A DNA stretch of 64,000 nucleotides from Azolla caroliniana (taxonomy: Eukaryota > Plantae > Polypodiophyta), in assembly GCA_043228905.1 (NCBI GenBank), contig JBHGNT010000006.1:18166001-18230000 (forward strand), in the 5' to 3' direction. Under the pieces are notes generated by a model. That model worked only from the letters and a program-made list of their open reading frames with translations, was not told the DNA's origin and did not search any database. This document shows, one piece after another, positions 2,796 through 57,427 of this stretch. A program made the translations under genes and the position numbers. Within the stretch, counting starts at the first letter, position 1. Each line of letters begins with the position of its first letter.

Positions 2796-4506
2796 CGCAT
2801 CCGGAGGGAACAATTTCTCAACAAGAACTTCTTTTGCTTCATCCCCAGCTTGCGTTGTCCTGTTCTGGTGTCCAATCCTTCTTCGGTTGGTTCGGTACTT
2901 TGTCCGAATCTAGCTGGTTCACTATGGTCTTCGGTTGACATCTGGCTTCCAACCGGATGGATCCTTGTATCTTCCAAACGATCTCCATCGGTCAACTCAG
3001 AGGATGCTATCTTCTGCTCCAATTTCCAGTCGGCAATGGTCTTGTCTTCCATGAAGAGTATATGCCTACTCCGGATCACTTTCTTTTCGGCTAGGCTCCA
3101 CAACCAGTAGCCGAACTCATCATCACCGTATGGTAGGAATATACATGGTTGAGTCTTCGAGCCTATTTTTCCCCGTTTCTCTTTTGCGATGTGCACTTAA
3201 GTGAGATAGCTGAACAGTTTTAGATGCCGGTAAGAAACATCTTTACCAGTCCATACTCTCTGTGGTATGTCTCCGTCCAAGGGCTTTGATAGTGATTTGT
3301 TTCTCACGTACGTTGTCGTCATCAACGCCTCAACCCAAAACAACTTGGAATGTGCAAGCATACACCAGACTCTCTCCATTAACGTCTGGTTCATTCTCTC
3401 GGCCAGTCTATTTAGCTCTGGTGTCTTCGGCACAGTGAATTTGAGCCAAATTCCCTTCGACCGGTACTACTCCTCGAACTACGCCTGGTATTCGCCTCCA
3501 TTCTCCGCTCGAACCACCTTTAGCTTCCAGCCGGTTTCTCTTTCTACTCTTGCATGGAACTCCTTGAAGACAAATAATACCTAGTCCTTCGTCTTTAGCA
3601 TGGCTACCCACAACTTTCAGTTCTGGTCGTCTATGATGGTTACGAAGTACTGTGATCCGGCATGTTACTTCATGTCCAATGAGTATACGTCGATATGCAC
3701 AAGTTCCAACGGTGGTCTCGACCGGAATGAGGTCCGGTTCTGCTTGCCGGCCAAGAAATCGGTGCACTTCGCAAGGTGCATGTTTTTCACCTCTGGAATG
3801 AGGTTATCTTCGTCGAGTCTCTGCATCCTCTTCTGGCTCATGTGACACAGTCTCTTGTGCCACAGCCCACCGGCAGTGTCAGAAGCTATGTTCACCTCCT
3901 CCCGGCATATGCGGGCATGCATTAGGTACAATGCATTGATCTTCCGGGCTCAGGCCACGATCAAGCTTCCACTGCAAAATTCATTGTGCCATTTTGGATG
4001 CTACCGATGTAGCCTTCATCATCTAGCGGACCGGTTGATATCAGGTTCAGTCGAACCTCCGAAATGTGTTAGACATCTTTCAACAACAGTTTGCACCCAG
4101 TTGACATTGTCAGCCACATATCTCCTATGCCAACAATTCGGCCTGCTCCTTCATTCCCCATCCTTACAATGCCATGATCTCCAGCTCTGTGGGATTAGAA
4201 GCACTTCTAGTCGGGGGTCAGATGAAATGACGCTCCGGAGTCGAGCACCCATGTTGCTTCCTTGATGACAAGGTGCAACTCACTCTCCTTGGTTATTAGC
4301 AGCAACTCCTCTTCACTTGTCACAATTGCCGACGTTCCTCTCCTTTCCAGAATCTTCTTCGGTTCTAGACCATCAGCTCCCCCTTTGGCTTTCTGGAAGT
4401 GTCGACATATATTCTGGAAGTGCCCTGACTTTCCGCAATAAAAGCAAGTGGGATTCCCCCTTGACTTCGACCCCATCCCCGACTTCTCCTGGTTCTTGGG
4501 ACTTCG

Positions 4507-4995
4507 TGTTGTTTGGCCGACAATCGACTATGTTGTTGACACAGTATAAGTTGAACGTTGCTTACCGAATGTTCTATCAATGAATTGTGGTTAGGCGAAT
4601 GAATATTAAGTTACTATAATACTATCGATGTTATACAGACATCGAGATCGTTACTTATGTAATATAGTTATATCAAGATGGAAATAGATTAACAAAAGAA
4701 TAAATAGTTGCACACCGAGATTTTCCTAAAACTAAACTTATATTACTAAAATAAACGACAGTTTTTACAATGCCTTCGATTCCTTTTATAGGCAACCGAA
4801 AAGACTTCCTCATCAAGAAAGCATACTGCAATATCGGCAAGAATTCCAAAATTTGTAACTAACTATATTTTCGGTTTTAATTATATTCGGCAAAATGCTA
4901 ACTCATCGATTCCCCTTATTGATCTGACTCCGACTCCGACATTTCCGTCTCTGACGCTTCTCCACTTGTCCGACTGCCGCTTTGTCCGGGAAACA
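4507..4995 (-). repeat. 3' LTR of Gypsy P
   Basis: High similarity to 15504-15969; TATA (ctataaaagg) on the minus strand. Confidence 0.9.
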
Positions 4996-4997
4996 CT

Positions 4998-5012
4998 TGG
5001 CACGCCCGTGGA
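4998..5012 (+). other. Inverted PBS-like tRNA-complementary site at the expected PPT position
   Basis: CA-ct-TGGCACGCCCGTGG; near-identical to the element's own PBS TGGCATGCCCGGTGG (minus strand, 15478-15492). Confidence 0.7.
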
Positions 5013-5479
5013 CCAGGGCCTTGCCCGGCGAACCCACGACACCCTTCTATTCCTGCTTTTCGGAAGGAAGGTCCTCGTCCAATTCGTCTTCAATGTCGTC
5101 CTACAAAATATCAAACAATGAAGGTTCAGGCTGTTGCACTTCTTCTTCATCGTCGTCTGATTCTTTCGATTGTTGTGTATCCTCAGTTGATGGTTGTGGT
5201 GATGGTGCTACAAGCTCTAGTGATTAAGGGCAGAAAATCGTTCAGCACGAATACATTTCTGTCTCTGTAATGAGACAGAAGAGGAAGGAATAGGTTTTAA
5301 GGAAATAACTCTTTGCATGATGCCTAGGGAATAGAGACAGTTACTATTAATGTAAGTAATAATGTATATTTAGCAATAATGGCTCCACTACTCATTTTTT
5401 AGAGTGTATGCAATACCCTTACTATATTTATAGTCTGACTTAGACTTCCCCAAGATTTCCTCTTCAGACAGTTAGTTAC

Positions 5480-6363
5480 TGTTGCTTTTGCCCAGAATAA
5501 TCTATAGTTAGTCTTCTTCTTCTTCTTTTACAGTTGTGTGATGTATGTCTCGTCACTTTGCGTCGGAATCCACTGTGAATGGGTTTTCTGGCATTGGCCC
5601 GTGATAAGGTTTGAGCTAAAAACCATTTACCCATTTCGATAAAATCTTGCCTGAGAGTGTGCCGACTTGATACGTCCCATTTTTGTTGTGAACGATCCAG
5701 ACTGGTCCTGTCCATCGAAACCGAAGCTTTCCAGGCATAGATCCCATTTTTGTTTGAAATACTAATACCAGTTTTTCGATCGCGAATTGTCTTTCTGTTT
5801 GTCGACAGTGCCGCTCCACAAATGCTTTCATTTGTCGCTGCATCCGCTCTAAATCTGTCATGGCTTGTATCCGACTTTCTTCTAACATCAACAAACCTTC
5901 TTTCCGAAATTGTTCTGACTGTAGCTCATCTAACCTTTCTGTTGCTTGAATTCGGAGTGTCAGAACTTGGAATTCTATTGGCATTACGGCTTCCAAGCCA
6001 AAAGTCATGCGAAAAGGAGTGAACTTGATAGATGTTTTATATGAAGTCCTATATGCCCATAAGGCACTATGGAGTTTTTTATCCCAATCTGTACGATTTT
6101 CATTAACTATCTTCTTAAGTATTGTCTGCAGTGTTTTATTTGTTGATTCCGCTAATCCATTTGCTTGTGGGTAGTACGAAGTGCTTTTCTTATGCACCAC
6201 TGCATAATATGTAGGTAACTTATGTACAATTTTATTAATGAAATGTGTACCTTGGTCACTTACCAATTCTATTTGACACTCAAACCGGCACCATATATTT
6301 TCGTATAAGAATTTGGCTGTTGAGGCTGCCGTATTGTCTTTTAGGGGTTTAGCTTCTACCCGT
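5480..6363 (-). pseudogene. pol: Gypsy P integrase core and C-terminus
   Basis: VSDQGTHF, YYPQANGLAESTNK, ALWAYRT and KLRFRWTGP motifs (ORF 5616-6266). Confidence 0.9.
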
Positions 6364-6736
6364 TGTCATGCAAAATCTGTCACTATGTGTGGATCGTGAG
6401 GCGGAAGGAATTAGGCTCACACGCTTAGCACAAGCAAGATGTACACATGAGAGAAGTAGGTCAAAGAAAATATTCGTTTATTGCAAAAGAAAATGGATTC
6501 TTTATAATTCTAGAATCATGTTACAATGGATTGCATATGAATATGAAAGATCATTCTTGAAAGAAAGGAGCCAACAACCATGTAAGGAGTGGTCCGCTAT
6601 GAATATGAGAGATTCTTCTTCCCCAAGGAATGGGAGAGAGAAGAAGAGAATGGGAAAAAAAATCTAGAGAAAAAAATGGAACATATACGGAGTTCCTTCT
6701 TGATCATAGCCTCCAATGTTCCTTTGCATATCTCCC

Positions 6737-6880
6737 CTTTTAGTTGCATGGCCTCCATTTTTAGCGGCTTGGCCTTTATTTTTAGTTGCATGGCCTCCTT
6801 TTTTAGTTGATTCGCCTTTACTTTTAGTTGCATGCCCTCCTTTTTTAGTTGTTTGACCTTTACTTTTAATTGCATGCGAC
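6737..6880. repeat. Short tandem subrepeat (ttttagttgcatggcctcc-like) within LTR B
   Basis: About four repeated units visible; they produce spurious repetitive ORFs at 6597-6915. Confidence 0.7.
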
Positions 6881-7502
6881 CGTTCGTATAATTCGGCCAC
6901 ATGATCCACAATCATCCATAAAGTTCAGCCTATGTGTAATCCATATGTGCGTCGCAACCAAACCGTAGACGCGTCCGCGCGTGCAAGTCCCGACCGCGTA
7001 GTGTACGCGTCCGCGCACACATGCGTCCCGACCACATTGTGTACGCATCCGCGCACGCACCCGTACACACACGCGTCCCGACCGCGCCGTACACAGTGAC
7101 CCAAAATCATTTGAGCCATTCATCCACACAGTTTAACCCAAGTCACCTTGAACATTCTGTGCTTCACACATAGACATAAAGTAATACATTCTGGTTCTCC
7201 TTATATAATATGGGATCCAATGTTGTCCTATCTCTATGGGATATCTCACAGTTTGGTTTTTCTTAATCTTCTCAAACTTCACACTCACATAACTTTGATA
7301 CTTGTTTATCCATTTCATGTGTAGTAAAATGCGTTCTGAAGCTCTTGAAGACTTCCATCTTTCGTACTAATCCATTTAAGCTAACCTAAAATAATTATTT
7401 CATTACTTTTCTTATTGTGTTTAAAAATGCACACGACATTCACCCTCACCAAACCTGCACATCCACCGGTATGTGCCAATTGTAGTGAGGTTCCTCTTTT
7501 GA

Positions 7503-8810
7503 TTATTGTTTTTCAATCTCAATGGCCGAGGCTACATCGTCTAGAGCTTCGATTTCAAGATTTGGGGCCTCTCTTCTCTTAAAGATCTTGATTCTCTTTC
7601 CTGCAATTGGCAAAGCAAGTGATGTACCATCCAGTTCTACTAAACGATATGTTGCATTATCTTCCACTTTCTTCACCACATATGGTCCAAACCATCGTTG
7701 TGAAAATTTTCGAGCCGTACTATGTTGGTTGTCTAGGCTACTCTCGTAGACCAGCACCCAATCTCCTTCAATGATTTTCCTTGGACGAAGTCGATGTCGT
7801 TTGTTGAAGTCAATGTCGTTTGTTGAAGTCTCTCTTGTTCTTCAGCCGCGCTTTAGCCACTTCAATATCTTCCAACTTCCGCTCCAACTGTCGAATCCTC
7901 AATGCTAGAAGATCTTCTCTACTTATCTCATCTTGCCATGGCAATGCAAACCATGAAACAATACTTTGTTCCACTGGCATTATCGGTTTCTGTCCGAATA
8001 TGAGCTATGCTAGCATGTATCCCATCACCATGCTATGAGTAGTCCTGTCAGCCCATAGTGCAAATCGCAATAAACGTGGTCATTCTCTTGTTTTCCCATG
8101 GCAAGCTTTCATTACAGCCTTCACAATCGGTCCATGTCCATGTTCCACTTTCCCATTTGCTTCCAGATTATATGCCGTGGTAAGAGATAATTTGATTCCC
8201 ATCCTAGATAAAAATTCTTTAGCTTCCTTGGCGTCCAACTCGCCTCTATCAACCACTATCTTGCCGACGCATCCATATCTACAAATAACATCTTCAAGAA
8301 GGAATATGCATACTGATGATGTCTCCTTAGTTCTCAATGCTCGCCCTTCAACTTGATTGGTAAGATCCTCTCTCGCGAGCACAAGATACTTCATCTACCA
8401 TCGCCCTATTGGCATCATTACGATGTCCACCATCCACTTGTAAGGCATAGCCAACGGGTAAGTCGGATGAAGTTCATCTCGATGACGAACATTTGACATT
8501 CCTTACATGTTTCCACATAAGCTGCTACATCTTTGTAGATGCCCGGCCACCAATATTTCTCCTTAAGCTTCGCGAACGTCGCCCATATTCCTCGATGGCC
8601 TGCAAAAACACTATCATGAAATTCGGACATTAGTTTTTGTCGGTCTTCCAGCTTGCAGACAACTCTCATCGGAGTCCCATTCTACTTTTTTGCATGCCTC
8701 CAAAGAGATCCATCCTTCTTCCAAATTCGGTGGAGGTCTTCTGTCGACCATGATTGATCTTTTTGGAGAGAACTCAACTATTTCCCGATCTCCACAAATT
8801 CGCCTTCGTA
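7503..8810 (-). pseudogene. pol: Gypsy integrase (zinc-binding domain, core, C-terminal GPY region), decayed
   Basis: EFHDSVFAGHRG...CKECQ, VVDRGE, AYNLEANGKVE and RKFSQRWFGPY motifs. Confidence 0.9.
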
Positions 8811-10451
8811 TCATCAAGGTATGTCGAGTCATCCTCGACAAATCTTCCGTCGCGAACTCCATTAATATTGATCTTTCAAACTCTGACCACGTTGTCTTGT
8901 CGTCTTGAAGCTCGATGACATGTCTTTGGATGTTGTTGGCAACAACTCTCTTGAAGCTTGCGATTTGACGTGCTTCGAACATGTCCCTTTGATTCTTCTC
9001 CTTTCTATATGCATCAAGGAACTTCGTAATGTTCCTTCCATCAAATTGACCCTCGAGCTCAACAACACAGTCGACAGCCTTCTCACACTCTCATCGTTGT
9101 CTCGAGATCTCATCATTTGTTCGACGATCAACATCATCCTTTCAAACTCTCCCGCTTGGTTGCTTGAGGATGCCATCTCCAAGTATCCGTTGATCCTCGA
9201 TTTGATCCTTCCTGCCGCCTCTTTCAAGTCGGGTTCACCACTTAATTATGTCGTGAAGATCCGTCACTACATGCGGATCGTGAGGCGGAACCGCCGGGGT
9301 TCTGGACCGGAAGGACTCAAATTTTGCACTAACTTTAGCGAGAAAGGAATTAAGATAGATTGAAAGAGAGAGAGAGAGATTTAAACGCTTGACTTTGGGT
9401 CGAGAGAGATTGATATGGCGTAAGAGAGATAGAGAGAGATTAAGATTGGACCCTTGACTTTAGATTTAAGAAACAAGATACACCATCAATTGGAGAACGA
9501 ATTTTCTTCTTCTTAAATTCTTGAATAATACATAGCACCCCATTTGATCTTTTTCATCCACCCTTTTATAGATGCTCCCATGCATATGATGCATGTGAGG
9601 GTATAAGACATGCATACTATGCATGGAATGCATGTGATGCATGTTTCCCATTTGGCGCTCATGCATCACATGTCACTCAATCAAGCTCTAATATGAGAAT
9701 TTACATGTAAAACTATAATGATAAGAAAAATATTTTTAATGAAATGTCATAGCCTAGTGGTAAGTCTATAGACTCTCAACATGGAGGTGCAAGGATCAAG
9801 TCTTCACTTGCACTCCTTTTTGAATATACATATATATGTTTTTTATTATTAATGTATTTTTACAAGGCGTTTCTCTGTCCGGTCATCGTCTCGCCGGCTC
9901 CGTCGGTCGCCGTCGCCGAATGATGCCGAATGCCAGATCCCGGTCGCTGCATGCCGATCTCGCCGGCTCCGTCGGTTTCCGGTTACCGTCGATTACCGTC
10001 TGATCCATCGCCGGATGCTGGATGCCGCCGACCGTCGTCGTCTGATCTGTCCAAAACTCATAGTTATATGCATTTGGCTACATCCATTCATTAAGTCATA
10101 CAACTTAACCTTTCTATGCTCCACACATAAACACAAAGATAATTGCTTTTGCGCTGCATTATATATGGTGGGATCCTTATTTGTCCTGTCTATGTGGGAT
10201 ATCACATTGTTTTATTTTTCTTTTCTTCTTTGCAAACTTCATACCCACATACCTTGACACTTAGATGTTTGTTTCCTACATAGTAACTGCATTCAGAAGC
10301 TCTTTAAGACTTCTATCTTTTTGTACCAAGATATTAAACTTATTTAAAATAGTATCTTTACTATTATTGTTTTATATTTCGTGAGAAGAACCACACTCGA
10401 TTTCGTATGTTCCTTACAAGTTTCACACTACCGCCGAAAATCTTCACGATA
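8811..10451 (-). mobile_element. Truncated TGTCGTG-type Gypsy element C (5' LTR 9249-10451, PBS 9228-9240, gag N-terminus) nested in B
   Basis: TGTCGTGAAGA / TCTTCACGATA termini; PBS TGGTGAACCCGAC; gag fragment (QIASFKRVV...WSEFERS) paralogous to 12079-12387. Confidence 0.8.
9750..9821 (+). promoter_or_regulatory. tRNA-like Pol III A-box/B-box module with a T-run in LTR C U3
   Basis: TAGCCTAGTGGTAAG (9750), GGATCAAGTCT (9793), TTTTT (9817-9821); homologous to 1576-1640. Confidence 0.6.
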
Positions 10452-10479
10452 GCGCAAAGGCTGCTCCATTATCCAACAC

Positions 10480-12526
10480 CTTGGTCTCCATCCGGGACGA
10501 TGTGATATACGGTTGTCCTAGGATGGCAGGATGCGAAGTCGAGTCTTGCACGAAAAACTGTTGATCCATCTCCACATCCCTAATCGTGACTTTAACATTG
10601 GGTCAAGCTCCGTACAAGTCCTCTGTGGCCTTCGTTGTCGCTCGAATCTTCCATCCATGGTTTGTATTAATCGGCCATCTTCCATTCTTGTAGAACTCGG
10701 TCGACATGAGGTTAATCTCCGAACCATCGTCAATCAAGGCTGCCACGGTCTCTTTCTTCTCCCCGATCTTCACCAGTGTCTCTTTTGTCGCTCTTGCCCA
10801 ATGAGGTCGAGAGTAATGGTTGTCCGCCATCACTCCTTCCTCCTTTTCCGATCTTGCCATGGTTATGGCACTTGTTTTCACCTCCTCTTCATCTGATTGT
10901 TGCCGCTTCCGCTTAATCAGGTCCACGATAGTATCATGGAATTCCTTCTAAGCGATCCCAAGCAGTTCTCTCAAAGTAAGGTCGACATGACTTTCTAAAA
11001 CCTTCTCTTCAAGGACCTTCCACAAGTCAATTGTTTGTTATATGTCTGACCTTAGCTTGTAAGTCGGTGTCGTTCGTTCTTTTCCTTTCTTCACAGATTC
11101 ATCGACTTCCATTCGAGAAGGTTGGCTTGATCCACCGGGCTTCATGCTTGTTTCTCCTATCTCTTTTCGTGGCATAGGTTGCACTTGCCCTTCTTTCCCT
11201 GTGTTTCTCATATTGTGATGCTTTGATGTGCCATCTTCTTCATTAGTTTTTTTCCTCTTCTCTTCGACAAGAGCTTCATAATTGTCACACACAACCTCCG
11301 CAAAGCTTGTGTTATCATCGACTGGATCCGACCATCCGGTAACTCGTCACACATTTCGATTAGCAAGTTTTAGATCCTCCAAATTGGTTTTGCCTTTCTT
11401 TTCACACTCGAAGACTGTTGGACAAAACCCAGCTCCTAGCTTTATCGTCTTTAGATTCTCTCTTCCAACTCGTATCCCGACCGATGTGGCATAGTGCATA
11501 ACTTCCACATGCCTTGCGTCTTCCTCCTCCACTATCTTTTTCAGCCCACCTCTTCCAAAGTTCACTCGTAGTGGCTTTTGGGTCTCGCTCGAATGAATCA
11601 TGTTGCCGTCCAAATAGATGACATTCTTACGAATCGCGTCTTGCAAGTCAGTGCACTCCCTTCGCGAGTGCTTGAAGTTGTCGCACCACACACATCTATA
11701 CGCTTCTTTTCCCTTGGGCCCACGTCGACCTAAGTTGGCCAGCGATACCGCTTCAAACTTCTTGGAGAGCTCTTCAATTATAGAGTCCTCCATCACTTTC
11801 TTGTCGAAATTGTTGATTGATTTGTTAGGCTCGATCGTCATAGGTGCCTTCCCTCTCCACGATTGTGGATTCTCCATATCAGTTTCCTCTGGCCATTGTC
11901 GACGCCTATCAAGACGGCTACAAGCCTTCTTCACCGCCGCCCAGTCCGCTACCAAACCATTTGGTTGCGTTTCGTCCTCCAAAAAACTGCCCAATTCTCG
12001 TTGGTCTTTCGTATCCACCGCCTTCAAAAATAGCAGGACTTTATCTCCATCGAGAACTCGTTGATCAGCACTCATAAGTCAATTGTACTTCTGGTCGAAT
12101 TCCGCATATACTCCTGACACACACTGATTCTTCCCTTTCTTATCGATCCAAATCATTAGCGTATGCCAAGTCATCCGTGACGAATCTTCAAGCATGTATT
12201 CAACAAGAAGCGCCTTTTCGAACTCCGCCCAAGTTGTATGCTCGTTCTGGATCTCCATGATGTGCTCGCGGATCCCTAGTTCCACCACACGTTTGAAGCT
12301 AGAAATTTGTTTGAGATCGTTGACATCCCTTTGCTGCATCTCGTTCCAATAGGTACCAAGGAAATCCGTGATGTTTCTTGCCACCAAATCGTCCAGCTAT
12401 CTTGACTGTTCGATCAACAGCTTTGTCGATTAAAGCCTCTCGATCTCTCACTTTCAGCATGTATTCCACAATAGACACCATGCCTTTCATTAATTCCTCT
12501 CCTTGAGTTCCACTTGTCGAAGCCAT
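10480..12526 (-). pseudogene. gag: Gypsy B gag and aspartic protease, decayed
   Basis: MASTSGTQGEEL start; CVWCDNFKHSRREC zinc knuckle; ALIDDGSEINLM protease. Confidence 0.85.
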
Positions 12527-13010
12527 CGTCGCACTTGATATCCTCCCTACCGCCTCTTCAGGTTCGGTTCACCACTTAGATATGTCGTGCAAAATCCGTC
12601 ACTATGTGCGGATCGTGAGGCGGAAGCATCGGGGTTATGGACCGGAAGGAATTAAGGCTCACACGCTTAGCACAAGCAAGATTACACATGAGACAAGTAG
12701 GTAAAAGAAAATATTCGTTTATTGCAAAAGAAAATGGATTCTTTATAATTCTAGAATCATGTTACAACAGATTGGATATGAATATGAAAGATCATTCTTG
12801 AAAGAAAAGAGCCAACAACCATGTAAGGAATGGTCCGATATGAATATGAGAGATTATTCTTCCCCAAGGAATGGGAAAGAGAAGAAGAGAATGGGAAAAA
12901 AAACTAGAGAAAAAAAGTGGAACATATATGGAGTTCCCTCTTGATCATAGCCTCCAATGTTCCTTTGCATGCATCCCCTTTTAGTTGCATGGCCTCCATT
13001 TTTTGCATGC

Positions 13011-15449
13011 ACGTTATCTTCTTATGCTAAATTTGTCTCCTCTAGTGCCAAAGCCTGAACTCGTTGAGATACCCTTATTTCCTTTTCGGTAGCCTCCTAT
13101 TGTAGTCGGATTTCTTTCATTGTTTGCTCATCCAGTGGTAAACTCTCCTGTGGATCAACATACAATGTTCGAGCTTGTAATATATCCACTTCGAACAAGG
13201 GAATAATTTTTGGGTTATCATTGAAATAATGATGCTCCTCCACTTCATCCAGTTCTTCCATCATATTCACAGCCTCTACATGAATTGACAAACATTGCTT
13301 ACTCATAGTAATCTTATTTTGAGTTGACACACGGATTTTAGTTTTCCCTTTTCGGAATGTCAATAAATTCTGATTCCAATTTTGCTTAATATTAGCAATT
13401 TTTAACCATGGCCACCCTAATAGCAAAGAATATGCTCCAGGAGCCTCCAGATGGAGCACAATTGCCGATATTTGAAAAGTGTGACCACCTAACACGACAT
13501 CTAATTGCCGCAGTAATCCGATTGGTCGCACCGTACTGGTATCGGCCATTCTCAACCAAAATGGACATGCTTCCCATTTGGTAATGCTGAGCTTATCACA
13601 AGTAGTCTTATTAATTACATTAACTCCTGTGCCACCATCGACAATAGCACCATCTATTTCTTGGCCATGAATTATGACATTAATGGACGGATTCTACTCA
13701 TCCATAATTGTCAGATTATTACTAGGCTAACTATAGTTAACAGGTACCTATTCGGTGTTGTTCTGGGCAATTAGAGTTGCCACTTTCTCAGTAAATTGTG
13801 GAACCAATTTGAGTAATCCCGTTAAAGGTAATGTTACTTGGCAATCAGCCAAGATTTTCTAAGCTTCCTCATGTTCCTGTATGGCCATTGCTTTGGGTAG
13901 CTCGTTAACTTGGTTTACCTCATTGTCTTGCAGCATCCTGCACACATTATTTTTATTTGCCTCTTCCACCCATTCCCTGGCTGCTTTTCTAACAGCGTCC
14001 TGGATCTCCCATTCTGATTGTTTTTCTTTTACTTCTGGTAATGACCTGCTAAATTTCCGGTATCACCATATTAACGACAAGTGCTTTTCCTTTGATTTTA
14101 GAGGGACATTGATTTGCATAATGTCCATCTTTCCTACAAATATAACAGTTAGGAGTGAATGATCCATTGCCTTCACCCTATTCATATTGGGAATCTTCAT
14201 TCGGATTTTCTTTCTGAGAATCATGTTGAAATTATTGTTACGCTTTTAGTTTATAGAATTTTTGGTTGTTGGGCCGATTGTGATAACAACTGCCTTGTTG
14301 CTGTTGACGATTGTTATCCGGCTGTGCTGAAAAATCTTGATCTCGATTCTGTCGATAATCATATTGTCTGACTTCCTCTGTCGAACCTTGATTATCATTT
14401 CTCCTATATTCATTCTAGTCATTGTGCAGTCTCCTTTCCGAATAATTCTGATTATCATACCGATCATTGAACCTATTACGGTTATCCTGGTAACCATTTT
14501 CTGGAAAAATTTGTTGTACCAGTGTTGTTGTTTTGTTAAGCAAATTATATTCACATTGTTCTACTGAATGGACCTTAGAGTGACAGATTGTGCAATGTGT
14601 TCGTAAACTACACTCTATTGTCGAATGTCCCATATTCAAACAAGTAGTACACTGTACTGCTTGGCGAAACTGTAATTCTTCCATAGTTGGCAAAGTATGA
14701 TGCAATGCCGACATATCCATACTTCTTACATTTTTTGGATTCTGACCCGTAGTAATGGCCTTATCAATCACTTGCTCAATTGACTGAGTTCAGAAATCGA
14801 ACACCGCTAGTGTTGTTTGTAGTGGTTCGCGAATTGCCTCGAGAAAGATATCCTTTAGTTCGTTATCCGGAATTGGCCTGGAAATTTGTAACTGCAGATT
14901 CTGAAAACGAATGACAAATTGTGACACCGTTTCATTGGGTTCTTGATATAATGCATAAAATTGAGCTATCAGATACTTCTGAGGAATCTGTCGATGAAAC
15001 AATTGAAGAAACTTCTTGGTTGATTGTTCGAATGTTTCGAACGCTCGGAAACTATTCTGAGCAAACCAATTGGCCAATTGGCCATCTAATGACAAAACAA
15101 ACTCAACTATTTTAGACCTATCCTCGGCTACCGCCGATAGTGGCTGAGCTCCATGGTTTATTTCCCATGTTATCAAGAATTCCCTAATATGAGCTTCTGC
15201 ATCAGCGCCTTCTCGAAATTTCGAGTAAGGGTAAGGCATATTGTCTTCACTCCAAATATCGTAAAATGAGACTTCTTTGGGCTGATCTCCATCTGCCTTA
15301 CTGTCAGTTAAGTCGGGAACTGAAGACCACCTCCGACTTGTTCCTTGTTGTACTTCCGCAGTAGAATCCTCTTCGAGTCGGATTGTAACCGAACGTGTAC
15401 GAGGACGTTTACGATCGACTGGTGTATCCGGACCAGACGACAATACCAT
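13011..15449 (-). pseudogene. gag: Gypsy P gag (two zinc knuckles) and protease, decayed
   Basis: Retrotrans_gag-like YQEPNETVSQFVIRF; CTTCLNMGHSTIEC and CTICHSKVHSVEQC; AIVDGGTGVNVI and LLLGWPWL protease motifs. Confidence 0.85.
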
Positions 15450-15473
15450 TCGACTTGTTCTCTGCTAATTGCA

Positions 15474-15492
15474 GATTCCACCGGGCATGCCA
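15474..15492 (-). other. PBS of Gypsy P (probably tRNA-Arg type)
   Basis: TGGCATGCCCGGTGGAATC, 11 nt inside the 5' LTR end; tRNA identity is from recall, not verified. Confidence 0.7.
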
Positions 15493-15503
15493 AAATTATA
15501 CTG

Positions 15504-15969
15504 TGTTGTTCGGCCGACAATCGACTATGTTGTTGACATAGTATAAGTCGAACGTTCTATCAATGAATTTGTGGTTGGGCGAATGAATATTAAGTTGTTG
15601 TAATACTATCGATGTTATACAGACATCGAGATCGTTACTTATGTAATATAGTTATATCAAGATGGAAATAGATTAACAAAAGAATAAATAGTTGCACACT
15701 GAGACTAAACTTATATTACTAAAATAAACAATAGTTTTTACAATGCCTTTGATTCCTTTTATAGGCAACCGAAAGAACTTCCTCATCAAGAAAACATATT
15801 GCCATATCGGCAAGAATTACAAAATTTGTAACTAACTATATTTTTGGTTTTTAATTATATTCGGCAAAATGCTGACTCATCGATCCTCTTTATTGATCCG
15901 ACTTCGACTCTGACATTTCCGTCTCTGACGCTTCTCCACTTGTCCGACCCCCCCTTTGTTCGGGTAACA
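15504..15969 (-). repeat. 5' LTR of Gypsy P
   Basis: Direct repeat of 4507-4995, followed by TSD CTTCG. Confidence 0.9.
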
Positions 15970-17098
15970 CTTCGACTCGGGCCTCTTCCCCGGTAATTGC
16001 CTTCTTCCGTAACCAAAACCTTTGGATCGGTTCCGAACTCCTGGTTCTTCCAGCGAGCTTCTTCATTTAGCAAACTCGACTTTACTCTCGCCAGGGATAA
16101 GTGCTTCCCTTCCGGTCCTGTGTTGGCCAAAGTGACGACCAGCGTCTCTCAGCTATCCGGAAAGGATACGAGCAACAACAAAGTAAGTACCTCGTCGTCC
16201 ATAGGTACTTCTAGTGAGTTCATTTGGTTTATCAAGACCTGGAAGGCATTCATATGTTCCGCCATGTTGGAGCCATCTTGATATTTGAGCCTCATTATCT
16301 TCCGAAATATTGAGACTTCATTTACGACATTCTTGTTTTCCAACATCGTGCCAATCTTCTCCCAGATCTCATTGGCGTTGTCCTCTTCATTGAAGGTATT
16401 GTATAGGCTCATGGAAGAAGCATCTTATGTATGTCTTCGTCTTCATATGCATCATCTCCCAGGTTGCGACATCAATCTTGTCCAGTCATTTATTACCAAA
16501 TTGTACCAGTAGTCAGAGATCTTTGAACACTAACATGTCCCTCATCTTCGACTTCCATATTGGGTAGTTGGAGCCGGTGAGCTTGAACATGCCACCGAAT
16601 GGGTCTTCCATTTTCTTTCTTTCGTTTGAAGTTTAGAACTTTGCTCTCATACCAAATTGTTGAGAATTGTACTCGACCACATCCGAGTTTCACACTAGAA
16701 ATGGAAGATTAAACAGAAAGTAACAATGCACTTCTCAAGATAAAAGAGATGACATCCGATGTTAACATGGAAAACTTTGAGAGACAAAACCACTGGAATT
16801 CTCAAACTCCAAATTGGATCACTATGGGGAGAGGTACTACACTATGAGATTCTGAGGCAAAAACCTCAACCTCTATCTTCGCCAAACCGGCGGTTACAAA
16901 AGAAATGCTTTCTCTCTCTCTCTCTCTGTACAACAATAACAACCACAACAAGAATAAATAACCCACCTCAACATTGTTGCCCTAGTTATATTTATACTTA
17001 TATAACTTTGGGGCTATTTACAAATGTGACCTCAACAGTCACATCGAAACATATTTACTGATATCTCCAGCTGGATACCTTCCAGATCCATCCGGTTC

Positions 17099-17303
17099 GT
17101 TGTCGTCATTAGGGGAGTTAGGGTCCCTCTCTGGGTCCCTCTCTGGGTCGACAACAACCGTTGGTTGAGTGGAGTGCGCGGGCACGGGCCTCGTCGAAAG
17201 TCATAAGTTGTCGTCATTAGGGGAGTTAGGGTCCCTCTCTGGGTCGACAACAACCGTTGGTTGAGTGGAGTGCGTGGGCACGGGCCTCGTCAAAAGTCAT
17301 AAG
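17099..17303. repeat. ~100-bp tandem duplication spanning the Copia A-2 LTR end and its flank
   Basis: gttgtcgtcattaggggag...gtcataa occurs at 17099-17206 and 17207-17303. Confidence 0.85.
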
Positions 17304-18043
17304 TTGGTACTCTCTAGAGATGTCAAGGTACTTGTGTAACTCATTGGTGTCCTCTTGAAGTTTGACATGCTAGTTCAATATGGAAGGTTCAATGCTGAAA
17401 ATGTCGGTGCGAATGCGAACATCCCAAGCATGTTTCCACGCTCAGACTAACCAAAGGAATCCGAAAGACGACACGTAGGCATCTTCACTCTCAAGAATGG
17501 CATGGGTAAGGTAACTTATGATTCGGTGTAGGCACATGAGCTTTGCGAAGAGTTGTGCTAGTTGTTCCTCGTTGACCTGCATTGTGTCGGAAACCTCTCC
17601 ATGGACGCCATTATATGTTTCAATAACACCAAAAATTGAGTGACTTCATAACCAATTATTTGTCAGGCTTCACTCGTTATATCTTTGGTGCCTGGGGAGG
17701 TTTTGGGTGCACCGCAGTGTGAAATGAGAATTAGGGTCTTCATTCTTCCCTATACACCATTTACTACAAATTTTGTAGTCTATCTCTCTATTTTTACTAG
17801 GGTTCCGAATGTTGGAGGAAACAATAGCAAAACCTCCATTACAACCCGTTTGGAGAAGAACAAGAAGAAGTTGTGTGAGTGTGCCACAAAGGATCACTTG
17901 TCGAACTTTGTGTGGTTGTTCGACGAGTGGTCACTCATCGAATTGTGTGGGGGTAGTGGAGTCAAGCCATGCTCCTTGACATGATCAAGAAGACGTGATT
18001 AAACAAAGGTTAGGACAACATAAATGTAGGGCAAAAGAAAACA

Positions 18044-18190
18044 ACAATCAGAGACATGATTAGAAACATTATTAAAAGAGACAATCAGAGACATGATTCT
18101 AATTAACCATGCGCAAAAAATTATTTAGTACATCAGAGACATGATTAGCAGCATTATTAAAAGATTCTAATTAACCATGCTCGAAAAATT
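18044..18190. repeat. Local AT-rich repeats (atcagagacatgatt x3)
   Basis: Visible direct repeats. Confidence 0.65.
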
Positions 18191-18835
18191 AAATTACATG
18201 GTTGAAAAATAAATACTCATGTAATTAGTAAAATGATTAGATCAGAAAAAAAACATAGGGGAAAAACAGGTGAAAATAAGAAAAGAAAGAAAAATTAGAA
18301 AATTAAAAATAAAAGGGAAAAAACCCTAAAATTTATAGCAAAAGGACACGTGAGTAAAAATAGCATTATGTTGTTCAATGAGTGTGAACTCGTCGAATTT
18401 TGGGGGACATGTTCGAAGAGGGTGAACTCATTGAATTGTGGGGGTCTATGCGAGTGACACTTAGGCTAGAAAATATTAACGTTTTTACAAATCTGAATAT
18501 TATATTTCATTTCCTATGAAAATTTAAAATCAGTGGAGATTTATTAATTGGATACATGTCATATGCTCATTATGTTATACAAATGAAATTTTACCAAATC
18601 TGAATATTTTACTTATCAACACTGATATTAAATTTATAAACAGCTACATATTTTCTCCTCAAATATATAGATTTTTTAAACAATATGAGTTATAGAAATG
18701 ACTCTAGCCATTTAACAAATCTGTATACCAAAAGCTTGTGTAATAATATTTCAATGTAGCTTTAATCAAAATAGGACAACCAATTCATGGGGATTCCAGA
18801 GGTAAATAAAATCATTGTGTGCAATCGTCAAACTA

Positions 18836-19325
18836 GGGGACTGCTCAACGAGTTCACACTCGTCAAACTTTGGGGGACTTGTTTGACGATTGTGCATTCG
18901 TCGAACTGTGGGGTCTTGTTCAACGAGTGTGAACTCATCGAATTGTGGGGTCTTGTTCAACGAGGGTAAACTACTCGAACCGTGGAGGACTTGTTTGACA
19001 AGTGAGCACTCGTTGAACTTTGGGGGACTTGTTCAACGATTGTGCACTCGTCGAACTGTGGGATCTTGTTCGACGAGGGTGAACTACTCAAACTGTGGGG
19101 GATTGTTCGATGAGTATGAACTCTTCAAACTTTGGGTTTCATTCGATGAGTGTGCACTCGTTGAACTGTAGGGGTCTGTTCGACGAGTTCATACTCATTG
19201 AAATTTGGGAGTCATTCGACAAGTCTGGACTCATCAAACTTTGGGTCTTTTCAATGAGTGTGAACTCGTCGAATTTTGCCTAGGTAGTTCGACAAGTCTG
19301 AACTCATCGAACTTTGGAGAATCTC
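18836..19325. repeat. Tandem array of ~13 units of ~37 bp, each an inverted repeat (consensus ~ggggactt-GTTCGACGAGTG-tg-CACTCGTCGAAC-tgt)
   Basis: Units read directly; isolated copies also at ~17903-17951 and ~18371-18445. Confidence 0.85.
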
Positions 19326-19929
19326 GGGACACATCATTCGAAATAGATATGTCCGAGGTGGCGATTAATGTGTACACGATGTGGGTTGGTGCGGGGTACG
19401 ATGGCGACTGAGGTCAATCGCTTTTTTAAGATTGCTTAAAGTGTGCGGCACTTCATCGGGGGTTGTTTGGGGTGGACTCAATTTTAGATCTTATTTGTAT
19501 GTCTAAACATAAGTAGTGATATAGTTTTAGAAGAATAGAAAAGTGAGGGCGTGGGTGGGGGTTAGGGGAGTGTAGCTTGTTGAAGTTATCAAAAGTATTT
19601 AAACCTAATCAAAGTTTTTAGAACATATTAAAGATCATTGGGATAACTTAAGTTATTAGACACCAATGAAGTACTATTAAAACACCAATATAGAGTATTA
19701 TTAAAACGGGACCACACGCTTAGATGAACGGGAGTTGTTTAAACACACGCTTAAGCAAACACTTAAAAGAAAGATTATTATAAAAAATAAAAATAAAAAT
19801 AAAAATAGAAAAGAGAGATTGAGATTAAAAAATGATTATGGTTAAGAAGGGATTATGATTAAGGGGGAAGGGGTTGCTAAACAAAGTACTTAAACCTATT
19901 CAGGAATGGGATTGGGGACACATCGTGGT

Positions 19930-20416
19930 TGTCACTAGTATTTACATAACGTAGGTGAGGGTAGGTCACCAATATTTACATAAGTGAATGGAATGTTCAC
20001 TAATGTTAGAAAGGGACTAATGTGATTGGATAGAAGGAATGATAGGTGCATGCACTATCATGATCTTCACAGCCAATGAACGGAGTCTGAGTCTTTTTAG
20101 AAAGGAACATCTATTCAAGGGGCCTAGGGAGAGGTATAAATATGAGACTTAGCTACCCTCATAAGGAAATTACGTCAGAAGGCTATTGTCTTAGATACCG
20201 GTGGTGTGGACTAGGCTTTTGTCACGACAATTGCGTTAATCTTTTCCAAGGTATTAGTCATCCTAATATATGGTGGTATGGGATGTCAGTGGTAGGATGG
20301 CTATGTCTAGATCATGGCTCGGGGGTGGTCGGGTGGAACGGGTTCTCCTATCCAATTTATTTACCTTGTTTTTACTTTACTTTGGTCTATTGATTAGTAA
20401 TATAGACCCTTTAACA
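19930..20416 (+). mobile_element. Solo LTR, family D
   Basis: Homologous along its length to 52-527; TG...TAACA; no matching TSD. Confidence 0.8.
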
Positions 20417-20527
20417 ATTCACCATCATTTATTTGGACGACACTCCAATCTTTTTTCAAGACTCCCAAGGAGCACGGTGTGCATGTCAACCAGTCTTGGA
20501 AGAAGTACGATAATATAATCTTTACAT

Positions 20528-20980
20528 TGTTGTAATGTGGGGATCTCACATGAGGAAATAAGCTCAACTATATCTATATATATAAAAGACTGAAGGACAA
20601 GGCAAAGTACAACAACAAGAGTACAAATGTGATGATGTTAAATTCAACAGAAAGACATAACTCAACTTATAAGAACTTAGTCCATGCGTCGAAGGTCAAG
20701 GGTGTGAGTCCTATTTAATGTATGGAGGATCAAGAAGACATTAGTAGGATGAACGAGTGGGATGGTCAGGATGATCAAGATTTTGCTCGCACCAGACGCT
20801 TGAGGAAAAGGAGTGTGCATCAAAAGTGGAAAAGTGAGGTGATGAAGAAAGGGTTGTGGAAGTCTGTTGAGGACCTCTATATAAGTGTGTATAGCAAACA
20901 ACACAGAAAGATCTAAGCAAGCAAGATAAGCAAGAAGCTCAGTTGAAGCTCTAATGGAGACTTGTATTTCTCTTTTGTAA
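20528..20980 (+). mobile_element. Probable truncated LTR of an unidentified family
   Basis: TG start, purine-rich U3-like sequence, CTATATAAG at ~20877; fuses abruptly with the Copia B LTR remnant. Confidence 0.35.
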
Positions 20981-23900
20981 ACTCAAGCCCTAACTTGAGA
21001 ATGTATTCACACTTAAGGATACAATTTGGAAGGAGTTGGCCTTTTATGCCAACAAACTCCCCCGTAAAAGGGCTACTCTTCCCTTGTATACAAACAATTG
21101 GGGTGATCTCCCCTGTGAGCCTAGATTACAAGTCTAATCTATAGTTACAAGTGTATACATGCAAGTCTGTTGGCATTCGGCCGAATTAACAAAGCTGTTA
21201 CAGTAGTAAGAATCTAGCCTATATTCGCTAGTCATCTAGATCGTAAGTTATCTGCGTTAGCCAGACTAGATCGAGTGGTTCAGATTGGCTTGCGTCTAAA
21301 TCAGCTCATTTGTTCGGATCAGCTCATGTCCAATTCCGACTCTCGGCCTCTAGTTGATCGTTTGCTCCTTGTATGCACTCGTTCGTATGCTCCGTGTTGG
21401 CTCATCGATCTAACTTCAGATTTGTTCGTCCCTTGATCATCTCCTCTCCAGTTGGATTTGGCATTTCGATTCTTGGGACTTTGCCTTTTCAGCTCATCCG
21501 ATCAGATCAGTCTTCTAACTTCCTTCTACTACTGCTCATTTGGCTCTTTTCTACTGAGTTTCTTGTTGTAGTTCCATCATCATGTTCCTCAGTGCTCCAA
21601 AGTGTTAGGAACGCCGTCTTCTAATGCAAAACAAGATCAACACTCTTCTAGAATAAGATCGTAAATGGATGGAAGATCATAGCTTTGATGACAGCCAAAG
21701 ACAGAAAGTAAAAGACATCTAGTTTTCAAGAGAGAGAGTCATAGTTCAATGAAGTTTATTACAACTTTTTACAAAATGAGCAACCAACCCGTAATTGGAT
21801 TACAAAGTCAATTTATATATACTGACTAACTTAGGGCAACTACCCTTCTCACTATTTACATAAATAGCCTAAGTCTAGTGTGTTCAAAAAAGGAGACAAT
21901 GTGAATACGTCCATGACAAACCCATATTCAACACTCCCCCGTAATGGGCGTATACATCCGAAACCTATAATCGAAATGAGTATATAATACAAATTGATAC
22001 AAAGTTCCGAACAACCGAAGTCTAGTGTTCGAAAAGCATCCTGAGTGTTTGATTTAATCAAATTGATTCTTCATTACGCCCATGTGTTGCCTAAGTTATC
22101 GAAATCAGTTATTGCGTTAATGTGTCCACGACATTGGTTCATGGGTCCGCGACATTATCGATTGTTGATATTTTCTCTAGACCGATTTTCCTGTCATGAT
22201 GCAGTCCCGAACGAAATGATATCGAATGTCAATATGCTTGGAGGCATTGTGATGAACCGGATTTTTCGACAGAGCAACAACACCCTGACTATCACTGTAA
22301 ACAATTGGAGCCGAGCCGATTTTGGCTTGTCGAAATGTGTAGGCCAGCCGACCGAGCCATAAGGCCTCTTTTGCCGCATCGGACACGGCTATGTATTCAA
22401 CCTCGGTTGTTGATGTGGAGGTGCACTCCTGCAGTTTCGATTTCCATTAGATCACTCCGTTGCCAAGTTCAAAACCATATCCAGTTGTCGATTTTTTGTT
22501 GTCTATGCAACCTGCAAATTCCGAGTCGATGTATCCGACTACACCTGAGATGTCGTTCAGGCCGAACAGAATACCAAGGTCTTTTGTGCCCACCAGATAT
22601 CTAAACACATGCTTGACTGCGTTCCAGTGCGATCGGCCGGGATTATGCATAAATATGCTGATGACTCCAACAGCGTGAGCGATATCAGGATGTGTCACGA
22701 CCATTGTGTACATTAGGGAGCCAACTACTAGTGCATACGGTACCGACTCCATAATTTCCCCCTCCGGACCGGATGTCGTGCAATCTAGCCGAGACACTCG
22801 AGTACTAATAGGAAGCGGGGTAGAGGAAGATCTTGCCCATTACATGTTGAAGTGTTCTAGGACACATCCAATGTAGTCAGATTGGGACAGAAACAATTGT
22901 GATTGATTACGATTCCGACTGATCTTCATACCAAGAATGTGACGTGCCGAACCGAGATCCTTCATGGCAAACTTCAACCACTGTTGCCGAACAAGTTCGG
23001 TGAGTTCGCCTGCATGGCGTCCAGAGATTAGCATGTCGTCCACGTAGATGATGGGGAAGATGGGTGATCCATCTCGAGTTGTCTTCGTGAAGAGACAATG
23101 GTCCTCGTCACTCTTTGAGAAGCCAATCGATTGGATGAAGTCGTCGAACTTCTTGTACCACTATCGCGGCGCCTGTTTCAGGCCATAAAGACTCTTCCTG
23201 AGTCGGCAAACTAGATGTTCTTGACCGGATACCACGAAACCTTTCGGCTGCCCCATATAAATTTCCTCCTCAAGATCACCATGGAGGAAAGCCGTTTTGA
23301 TATCTAGCTGAATCAACTCCAAATTTTCAGTTGCCACTACATCGAGCATGAAGCGAAGGGTTTTCATCTTCACCACTAGCAAAAATATTTCGTCGAAATC
23401 GACACCATGTTCCTGTCGATAACCCTTTGCTACAAATCTAGCTTTGAATTTTGGGTTGGCCAAATCGGACGTCTCCTTAATTCGATAGACCCACTTGCAC
23501 GGAACACCACGTCGATTTTTTGGTAATTCAACCAGGTCCCAAGTCTTGTTTGCATGAATGGAGTTCATTTTGGACTCCATTGCCAGATCCCAGGTGGCCG
23601 AATCAACTGACGTCGATGCTTCTTCGTATGACGTCGGTTCTCCGGCGTCCGTAAAGAAGATGCTAGGAGAGTATCTCTTTGGAGGTTGCAACAGTCTCTC
23701 GGATCTTCGAGGTATGACTGGATTAGTCGCATCAGGTGTCGTGGTCTGATGGTCCAAAGCCGAATCATTCAGTTGTGCCGAGTCGAAATTCTCTGAGTCG
23801 GTGTTTGAAGCCTCAGCTACCCGTGAAGTTGACCGTGTGTTGTGCGTTGGGCCTTCATGAAGGGTTGGTACATCGGAAAAAGTTACCCTTCGGACTTCGA

Positions 23901-56440: not shown

Positions 56441-56863
56441 GTCAATCAGTGCAGAAATGGACAATAGATTCTTCTTGAGATCTGGCACGTACAACACTTG
56501 AGAGAGATGCTTTGTCCTGCCAGTCGTTGCTTTGAGGGAGACGGTTCCGGTTCCTTTGGTTGGACATCAAGCCTTGTTCCCAACCACAACATTGATAGGC
56601 TCTTGTAGAGGTATCCAAGAGTTGTACCAGTCACGATTACTGGTCATATGTCGGGATGCTCCACTATCGAGAATCCAAGAGTCGTCGACAACTTGAGTGT
56701 CAACTGAAGAACAAACTTCTTCAGTTGCGACCCATAACTCAAGCTCATCTTAGATGAAGAGGTTCGAGTCACATCCTAGATGTGACAGTAACTAGCAAAA
56801 GATGAAGACATTGCCGAACCAGATTGGGAAGCCACCCAGGAACTCTGACATGCCTAGGAGGCA

Positions 56864-57427
56864 TTGGATAAGGAACTAGCAATATCCCAGCATGTGAAGG
56901 CGTCCACACTCGAGGAAGTGAATTTAGGAACGGATGAGGAACCGCAGCCAGTGAGCGTGGCCAAAGAAATGCAACCAGAGGAGAAGATGGCAATGGTCGA
57001 ATTGCTAAAAGAATATAAGGATGTCTTCACCTATTTATATGAAGACATGAAGGTGATGGATCCTCAATTTTATCAGCACCAAATACATTTGAGCAAGGAT
57101 GCCAAACTAGTAGCACAACGACACTACCGGATGAACCCTAATTACGCAGTCAAGGTGAAAGAGGAAATTGGCAAGTTACTAAGGGTCAGATTCATCAGAC
57201 CAGTCAAGCAAGCTACGTGGATCAACCCAATCGTCGTCGTGCCGAAAAAGAATGGGAAAATTAGAGTATGCGTCGATTATAGAAAACTAAACACAGCAAC
57301 AGTTATGGATGCCTTCCCACTTCCATTTACGGATGGGGTACTAGATGCGGTTGCAGGACATGCAATATATAGTTTTCTGGACGGCTTTAACAGGTATAAT
57401 CAAATTCAAATGCACCTAAACGACTAA
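56864..57427 (+). pseudogene. pol: Non-chromovirus Gypsy reverse transcriptase N-terminal fragment
   Basis: LEEVNLG, VVVPKKNGKIRVCVDYRKLN, FPLPF and YSFLDGFNRYNQI motifs. Confidence 0.9.

What the first reader, a model, noticed from the sequence alone, without database searches (positions are those of the whole stretch)
4996..5015. Gypsy element with a second, inverted tRNA primer-binding site instead of a PPT (possible dual-tRNA-primed reverse transcription)
Seen: element 4507-15969 has a perfect CTTCG TSD and is on the minus strand by ORF order and TATA. Its normal PBS is TGGCATGCCCGGTGG by the 5' LTR. Next to the 3' LTR there is no purine run; the sense strand reads ...CCACGGGCGTGCCA-AG-TGTTT, i.e. 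a tRNA 3'-end copy ending in CCA exactly 2 nt before the LTR's TG. The opposite strand therefore has textbook PBS geometry (CA-nn-TGG). Known: LTR elements prime plus-strand DNA from an RNase H-resistant PPT, and integrase trims a short terminal extension. Inference: the same tRNA (probably Arg) anneals to first-strand cDNA and primes the second strand, or antisense transcripts can also be reverse-transcribed. I do not know this mechanism from plant retrotransposons.
Basis: partly seen in the sequence, partly recalled or inferred. Interest (0 to 1): 0.85.

Follow-up and report, generated by a model that had tools for sequence, protein, structure and literature searches.

The report
Mirror tRNA site replaces polypurine tract
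An abundant group of plant jumping genes lacks the purine-rich patch that normally starts their second DNA strand and carries, two bases from that spot, a conserved 40-base copy of a tRNA's 3' arm, so a host tRNA likely primes both DNA strands.

Summary
Element 4507-15969 (CTTCG TSD, minus-strand gag-PR-INT; RT/RNase H lost, another element nested) has no polypurine tract in either orientation. At 4998-5037 lies a 40-nt cassette: tRNA positions 59-76 (one C missing), a 13-nt hairpin, and positions 49-58, ending in CCA 2 nt from the 3' LTR. Relatives fetched by integrase homology carry it in 11 of 12 informative loci (five subfamilies, 66-71% identity). In four organisms it is a sharp conservation island, with no indel at 3% or more. 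A stand-in tRNA-Arg(UCU) pairs better with its antisense strand than with the normal PBS, looping the hairpin out between 58 and 59. Relatives' acceptor-side substitutions are all G-to-A, i.e. wobble on that strand. Best reading (0.55): the tRNA anneals to minus-strand cDNA and primes the plus strand. Rivals: a cis RNA remnant, an antisense template. No priming data and no host tRNA were obtained; one locus (L049) has neither signal. My searches found no description in print. This scan noted the same feature three times on other DNA of this genome.

The parts
4502..4506 (.). Target-site duplication CTTCG, left
4507..4995 (-). 3' LTR (489 bp); TATA-like box at 4783-4791 on the minus strand
4996..4997 (+). 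2-nt spacer between the LTR end and the tRNA site; the base next to the LTR is invariant in 11 of 11 aligned cassettes
4998..5014 (+). Inverted PBS: complement of tRNA positions 76-59 with one position bulged; this copy has two mismatches (5012, 5013)
   Evidence: 96-99% of depth carries the tRNA-matching base at 5012
5015..5027 (.). 13-nt insert with a 4-bp hairpin (5016-5019 with 5023-5026), looped out between tRNA positions 58 and 59
   Evidence: G5018A and C5024T occur at matching shares in four runs
5028..5037 (+). Complement of the 5' strand of the tRNA T arm and T loop (positions 58-49)
   Evidence: the conservation island ends at 5037-5038
5577..6386 (-). Integrase core and C-terminus, N-terminally truncated
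   Evidence: 77-81% identity to P0002 and P0001
6364..13011 (-). Nested, unrelated LTR element; flanks do not form a matching TSD; it sits where RT-RNase H of the outer element is missing
13025..15428 (-). gag and protease of the outer element, with frameshifts and stops
15478..15492 (-). Normal 5' PBS (TGGCATGCCCGGTGG)
15493..15503 (-). 11-nt spacer between the 5' LTR and the PBS
15504..15969 (-). 5' LTR (466 bp)
15970..15974 (.). Target-site duplication CTTCG, right

Best explanation
This clade of non-chromovirus Ty3/Gypsy elements has no polypurine tract and carries a conserved tRNA-3'-arm cassette two bases from the 3' LTR, whose complement on the minus-strand cDNA likely binds the same host tRNA that primes the first strand, so that this tRNA would also prime the plus strand. 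Inferred steps: (1) the tRNA primes minus-strand DNA at the 5' PBS as usual; (2) after strand transfer, RT copies U3 and the cassette, and RNase H clears the RNA; (3) the exposed DNA pairs with tRNA positions 76-59 and 58-49, the hairpin looping out at the m1A58 position; (4) RT extends from CCA through the 2-nt spacer into U3; (5) RNase H removes the tRNA and integrase trims to the CA. The primer may be a second packaged tRNA (about 0.35) or the first primer handed over in cis and cut at the tRNA-DNA junction (about 0.2).
For: Shown: no purine run over 4 nt in the 30 nt before the LTR in the window or in 11 cassette loci. The cassette is present in 11 of 12 informative loci picked by protein homology alone, spanning five integrase groups at 90% nucleotide identity plus the window. 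The LTR start is fixed independently of the motif in the window (TSD), in L026 and in the L032 family. In four runs from four coded organisms, depth peaks over 5000-5014 (13,000-21,000) and drops to 76-660 at 4955-4979 and under 1,900 from 5040, so many otherwise divergent copies share only this stretch; no indel at 3% or more is listed before 5040. A stand-in tRNA 3' arm pairs with the 11 antisense cassettes tested at -42.9 to -51.8 kcal/mol (shuffle means -24 to -27; at most 1 of 300 shuffles as good), against -28.8 to -38.0 for nine 5' PBSs. All 8 substitutions in positions 59-76 of 10 relatives are G-to-A (about three or four independent events): wobble-compatible only if the antisense strand is the one that pairs. 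Three G-to-A changes in the T-stem columns break or weaken the sense-strand stem without compensation. RNase H catalytic motifs are intact in L026. From papers (passages): m1A58 blocks Watson-Crick pairing and HIV-1 pairs its PAS with the T arm (PMC13191261); Ty3 RT cuts the tRNA at or near the DNA junction and plus-strand transfer uses R-U5 (PMC5371799).
Against: No primer junction, cDNA end or RNA was observed. The tRNA used is bacterial (L111) and was found with a pattern modelled on the cassette, so the match is partly circular; energies use RNA-RNA parameters, not RNA-DNA. A tRNA on DNA is an RNase H substrate, and HIV-1 RNase H and NC suppress non-PPT RNA primers (PMC2665208, abstract and passages). 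G-to-A bias can also come from cytosine deamination on the antisense strand. Not all variation fits: the window's base at 5013 mismatches the stand-in in 36-85% of depth, A5032T (9-47%) breaks a T-loop pair, C5025A (9-68%) has no listed partner change, and position 55 or 56 mismatches in several relatives. L049 has a related LTR preceded by neither PPT nor cassette. The 80 loci come from one series of assemblies and may represent few hosts.
Confidence: 0.55

Rival explanations
1. The cassette works in cis as a non-purine PPT: the element's own RNA, folded like a tRNA T arm, resists RNase H, is cut after CCA and primes the plus strand.
For: Same position and 2-nt geometry as a PPT; needs no second tRNA; the sense strand can form a T-stem plus inner hairpin (96% and 85% of cells paired).
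Against: A cis primer always matches its template, so it does not explain why the sequence tracks a tRNA and changes only by G-to-A in positions 59-76. The T-stem shows no compensatory change. The five sense strands folded were no more stable than shuffles (z from 0.24 to -0.90).
Confidence: 0.2
2. An antisense transcript carrying the site is co-packaged; tRNA primes on that RNA and makes plus-strand LTR DNA, which then jumps to the minus strand.
For: It uses the same antisense pairing and avoids RNase H attack on the primer, since the duplex is RNA-RNA.
Against: The TATA-like motif was found only in the sense direction; it needs an extra transcript and an extra jump.
Confidence: 0.12
3. The cassette has another job (pairing with the element's own PBS for circularisation, dimerisation or control), and the plus strand is primed by a signal not recognised here.
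For: Sense cassette and own PBS are complementary (-20.6 to -28.8 kcal/mol in 8 pairs); Ty3 and Drosophila Gypsy use 3' tRNA-related sites for other purposes (PMC5371799, PMC1635307).
Against: The G68A subfamilies put a mismatch or bulge into that pairing; the T-arm half has no partner at the PBS; the exact 2-nt register at the U3 end is then unexplained.
Confidence: 0.1
4. A chance match or a one-off rearrangement in this decayed copy.
For: This copy is old and broken; a nested inverted element can mimic the pattern, as in L043.
Against: 0 of 100 shuffles give the motif; it is conserved in five other subfamilies and four organisms.
Confidence: 0.02

Closest known systems
Canonical LTR retroelement priming (HIV-1, Ty3): tRNA at the PBS, RNase H-resistant PPT
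   Same: 5' PBS, LTRs with TG...CA ends, 5-bp TSD, RT-RNase H-integrase order, short extension outside the LTR.
   Different: No PPT; a tRNA-identical cassette ending in CCA takes its place. Reviews describe plus-strand priming from a PPT (PMC12789967, PMC5371799, passages).
Ty3 bipartite PBS and Drosophila Gypsy second tRNA-Lys site
   Same: A tRNA-related sequence near the 3' end, involving the T arm.
   Different: Those sites are complementary to the tRNA on the genomic RNA, serve minus-strand initiation, and coexist with a PPT (PMC5371799 passages; PMC1635307 abstract and passages). Here the polarity is opposite, the CCA end is included, and the PPT is absent.
Athila (non-chromovirus, OTA superclade)
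   Same: No chromodomain or extra RNase H among the Pfam hits, 5-bp TSD, long 3' extra ORF in relatives, short spacer before the PBS (ATHILAfinder preprint, passages).
   Different: Athila uses tRNA-Asp/Asn (Neumann 2019, supplementary file 3) and has a highly conserved PPT junction (preprint passages). RT-RH identity to angiosperm proteins is only about 44%, and they fall in a separate clade of the quick tree.
Phygy and Selgy (moss and spikemoss non-chromoviruses)
   Same: Non-seed-plant non-chromoviruses without an extra RNase H.
   Different: 4-bp TSDs and Trp/Thr or Ala primers (Neumann 2019, supplementary file 3), against a 5-bp TSD and an Arg-like site here. No labelled reference sequence was available for a tree.
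Helenus TRIMs
   Same: A tRNA-derived sequence inside an LTR element.
   Different: There it lies within the LTR as a promoter, and PBS and PPT are ordinary (PMC10886601, passages).
Hepadnavirus primer translocation (recalled, no call)
   Same: Analogy for the primer hand-over variant: one RNA primer moved to a second site to start the plus strand.
   Different: That primer is a capped remnant of viral RNA, not a tRNA.

Membership tests
Ty3/Gypsy LTR retrotransposon | Direct LTRs with TG...CA ends and a TSD | tested here: met
Ty3/Gypsy LTR retrotransposon | gag-PR-RT-RH-INT order | tested here: met
   L026 and P0002 in full; the window keeps gag-PR...INT and lacks RT-RH
Ty3/Gypsy LTR retrotransposon | tRNA PBS after the 5' LTR | tested here: met
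   host tRNA not fetched
Ty3/Gypsy LTR retrotransposon | PPT before the 3' LTR (usual, not universal) | tested here: not met
Chromovirus | Chromodomain after the integrase | tested here: not met
   no chromodomain hit in L026 pol or P0002
Tat (TatI-III, Ogre, Retand) | Additional archaeal-type RNase H domain | tested here: not met
   no such Pfam hit in L026 pol or P0002
Athila | tRNA-Asp/Asn PBS TGGCGCCGTTGCC and conserved PPT junction | tested here: not met
Athila | RT-RH groups with Athila references | tested here: inconclusive
   quick tree without labelled references; separate from the angiosperm clade
Phygy / Selgy | 4-bp TSD; Trp/Thr or Ala PBS | tested here: not met
   5-bp TSD in one copy; table
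Phygy / Selgy | Phylogenetic grouping | not testable with these tools
   no labelled reference sequences retrieved
Bipartite PBS (Ty3 / Drosophila Gypsy type) | 3' site complementary to the tRNA on the genomic RNA | tested here: not met
   sense strands pair no better than shuffles; only antisense strands pair

The most novel reading that the evidence does not exclude
A whole clade of plant LTR retrotransposons has abandoned the polypurine tract and primes both cDNA strands with host tRNA, possibly by handing one tRNA from the RNA PBS to a stronger, m1A58-shaped site on the new minus strand.
Probability: 0.55. Interest if true: 0.92.

Novelty: new variant of a known kind. Interest (0 to 1): 0.8.

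Why it matters
PPT priming of the plus strand is presented as the rule for retroviruses and LTR retrotransposons in the reviews read here. A successful, high-copy clade without it would show that a Gypsy RT can start DNA synthesis from a tRNA annealed to DNA without destroying it. That makes the question of how RT chooses its plus-strand primer testable with short substrates. Even under the main rival, a pyrimidine-rich tRNA mimic acting as the PPT would be unusual. In practice, PPT- and PBS-based annotation would miss these elements or call the wrong strand.

Tried and rejected
No whole genome is held for this window, so copies could not be counted or aligned one by one. ARAGORN found no tRNA gene in the window or in the 80 element loci, and Rfam gave no tRNA match over 4900-5150. 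The host tRNA was not found: 0 hits in viral contigs, no relevant title in two motif searches of papers (listings only), 0 occurrences in the supplements of two plant tRNA-fragment papers (one file unreadable). No RNA holder listed. L043 first looked like a short cassette but is the inverted 5' LTR-PBS junction of another element and was dropped from the count. L205 and L206 match the pattern but show no retroelement protein or LTR. L001-L003 (about 30% identity) were not examined. Folding gave no support for special stability of the sense cassette or the 5' leader. The careful tree did not finish; only the quick tree is used. The opposite orientation (4998 as the true PBS, antisense ORFs) was rejected: it has no PPT either, the TATA box and ORFs agree, and relatives have a normal PBS before gag. 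The 11-nt 5' spacer was not tested across copies.

Full report
THE ELEMENT. The window is a stack of plant LTR retrotransposons; no whole genome is held. The element spans 4507-15969 between identical CTTCG repeats, with LTRs of 489 and 466 bp that differ at 30 of 464 aligned columns. gag, protease and integrase are on the minus strand, as is the one TATA-like match in the left LTR. Against a full-length relative, P0002, residues 889-1555 (RT, RNase H, start of integrase) have no match inside the outer element, and an unrelated LTR element fills about 6364-13011. This copy is dead, so the question is about its family.

THE OBSERVATION. TGGCAYGCCCG occurs twice in 64 kb: on the plus strand at 4998, two bases after the left LTR, and on the minus strand at 15492, eleven bases from the right LTR; 0 of 100 shuffles gave a match. 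The longest purine run in the 30 nt before an LTR is 4 in either orientation, while four other LTR pairs in the window give 6, 9, 7 and 9. Both ends carry an inward-facing PBS-like site and neither carries a PPT.

RELATIVES, CHOSEN BLIND TO THE MOTIF. An integrase alignment returned the best 80 of 220 confirmed metagenome loci. Thirty-eight have 1000 nt or more after the integrase match and 14 have 2950 nt or more. Of those 14, eleven carry the cassette, their LTR starting 2979-3913 nt after the match. L017 ends before the expected place and L019 leaves the element early. L049 has a related LTR preceded by neither a PPT nor a cassette; it is a low-coverage, decayed copy and may be a nested or deleted junction, but I count it as an exception. 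That gives 11 of 12 informative loci. L043 was dropped because its match is the inverted 5' junction of another element. The eleven fall into five integrase groups at 90% nucleotide identity, 66-71% identical in protein to the window. They come from one series of assemblies, so host diversity is unknown. The LTR start was fixed without the motif in L026, whose 5' LTR begins beside unrelated DNA, and in the L032 family; both times it lies two bases after CCA. L026 has an open 1797-residue gag-pol frame with intact RT, RNase H and integrase motifs and a 1194-residue 3' ORF without a Pfam hit. Eight loci show a normal PBS 4-5 nt after the 5' LTR.

COPIES IN THE HOST AND ITS KIN. I laid 4 of 11 listed runs on 4400-5700 and 4 on 4955-5085 (coded organisms A-D). 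Summed depth is 76-660 at 4955-4979, 13,000-21,000 at 5000-5014 and under 1,900 from 5040, with loose ends piling up at 4982-4992 and 5037-5038: many divergent subfamilies share just the cassette and the LTR tip. No indel at 3% or more is listed before 5040. Within 4996-5011 the only listed changes are C5006T and C5007T (1-8%); 12 weaker rows were not shown, but the per-run tallies show that every G-to-A place in X1, X7 and X9 is among the shown rows, so G5004A and G5008A are under 3% there. Contigs drop rare variants, and depth is not a copy number.

WHAT THE CASSETTE IS. Aligned, it reads in the sense direction as a tRNA T-stem 5' strand and T loop, a 13-nt insert, then the T-stem 3' strand, acceptor strand and CCA with one C missing. 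A pattern made of the two arms found 121 prokaryotic loci, 105 of them inside ARAGORN tRNAs at exactly that place. These are mostly Leu (42), Lys (30) and Arg (22); the single one that ends exactly like the cassette is tRNA-Arg(UCU) (L111). That a plant tRNA-Arg(UCU) ends this way is my recall; tRNA-Arg primers are known for Ogre, TatIII and Retand (PMC6317226, supplementary file 3). With L111 as stand-in, the antisense strands of ten relatives and the window pair at -42.9 to -51.8 kcal/mol, stronger than nine 5' PBSs (-28.8 to -38.0) and than shuffles; sense strands do not beat shuffles. In the ten relatives the insert loops out at or next to the step between positions 58 and 59 (counted back from A76). 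m1A58 cannot form a Watson-Crick pair and marks the end of the 18-nt copied stretch, and HIV-1 pairs a separate signal with the T arm (PMC13191261, passages). The insert is a 4-bp hairpin with two pairs changed on both sides (the L032 group pairs in a register shifted by one), and G5018A tracks C5024T in all four runs (42/49, 53/67, 61/65, 25/26%). Against a strict hairpin, C5025A reaches 51% and 68% in two runs with no listed partner.

WHICH STRAND PAIRS. In positions 59-76 the ten relatives differ from the stand-in by 8 substitutions, all G-to-A on the sense strand, about three or four independent events. On the antisense strand these give G-T wobble; on the sense strand they break the T stem or the pairing with the element's own PBS. 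This favours an outside partner binding the antisense strand. It is suggestive only: deamination can give the same bias, and mismatches exist at positions 54-56 and 60.

MECHANISM. Shown: no PPT, a conserved tRNA-arm cassette, a fixed register, intact enzymes in a relative. Inferred: the tRNA binds the new minus-strand DNA and primes the plus strand (0.55). It may be a second tRNA, or the first primer moving in cis from the shorter RNA PBS to the stronger DNA site and being cut at the junction; Ty3 RT makes such a cut, and its plus-strand transfer does not need a tRNA copy (PMC5371799, passages). The main difficulty is that RNase H and nucleocapsid suppress non-PPT RNA primers in HIV-1 (PMC2665208, abstract and passages). 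Rivals: a cis RNA remnant (0.2), an antisense RNA template (0.12), another role (0.1), chance (0.02).

PLACEMENT. The closest named proteins are from the liverwort Riccia (RT-RH 50-55%) and the fern Adiantum (integrase 42-58%); angiosperm RT-RH proteins reach about 44%. In a quick tree of 55 RT-RH rows, the loci form a clade with P0001, P0002 and P0006 (support 100) inside a looser group with Riccia and Adiantum rows (85), apart from the angiosperm clade (L057 and L081 did not enter; the careful search was unfinished). A non-seed-plant host is inferred. The clade fails defining features of chromoviruses, Tat, Athila, Phygy and Selgy, so it is left unassigned among non-chromoviruses.

NOVELTY. 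Seven topic searches (listings, two with no hit) and passages of the papers cited showed no PPT-less, doubly tRNA-primed LTR element. The known second tRNA sites (Ty3; Drosophila Gypsy, PMC1635307 abstract and passages) have the opposite polarity and coexist with a PPT; Helenus keeps PBS and PPT (PMC10886601, passages). Limits: subscription journals and Repbase are not searched, the per-element file of Neumann 2019 was not among what I read, and bioRxiv supplements are closed. A yeast review mentions unexplained priming in Tcn2-5 (PMC7175516, passage), which I did not follow. This scan reported the same feature three times in this genome and mirror PBS sites in two fungal copies; these are unchecked notes, and I had seen the 40-base wording before running.

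VERDICT. A real, conserved and unusual feature; a new variant of LTR retroelement replication if the inference holds. Interest 0.8.

Noticed in passing
window 6364-13011: Nested LTR element with 21-bp tandem repeats at its left LTR; no purine run is evident beside that LTR either, its flanks do not match as a TSD, and a third partial copy of its LTR start lies at 9205-9315. Recombination between two inserts may have deleted the host element's RT-RNase H.
   Followed up: partly
L026 7515-11099: 1194-residue forward 3' ORF with no Pfam hit; the window copy has only 621 nt between the integrase ORF and the LTR, against about 3.0-3.9 kb in relatives.
   Followed up: partly
window 15493-15503 and 4540-4549: The long 5' spacer is complementary to a stretch about 35 nt inside the LTR and could form a U5-leader stem; folding gave no support (z 0.09).
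   Followed up: partly
window 4995-4996 and 15503-15504; L011, L016, L026, L032: Both LTR ends read ACA followed by C outside the LTR, in the window and in the relatives, suggesting a symmetric integrase attachment site one base longer than the LTR.
   Followed up: partly
window 56816-57424: Plus-strand RT fragment of the same clade (64-74% identity to P0001, P0002, P0006).
   Followed up: no
L014, L015, L019, L020, L026, L027, about 940-970 nt after the integrase match: A looser internal look-alike of the cassette's 3' end, not beside an LTR; may be chance within the 3' ORF.
   Followed up: no
window 62-20426: The element is itself nested in a Copia element whose LTR-like repeats lie at 62-537 and 19944-20426.
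   Followed up: no
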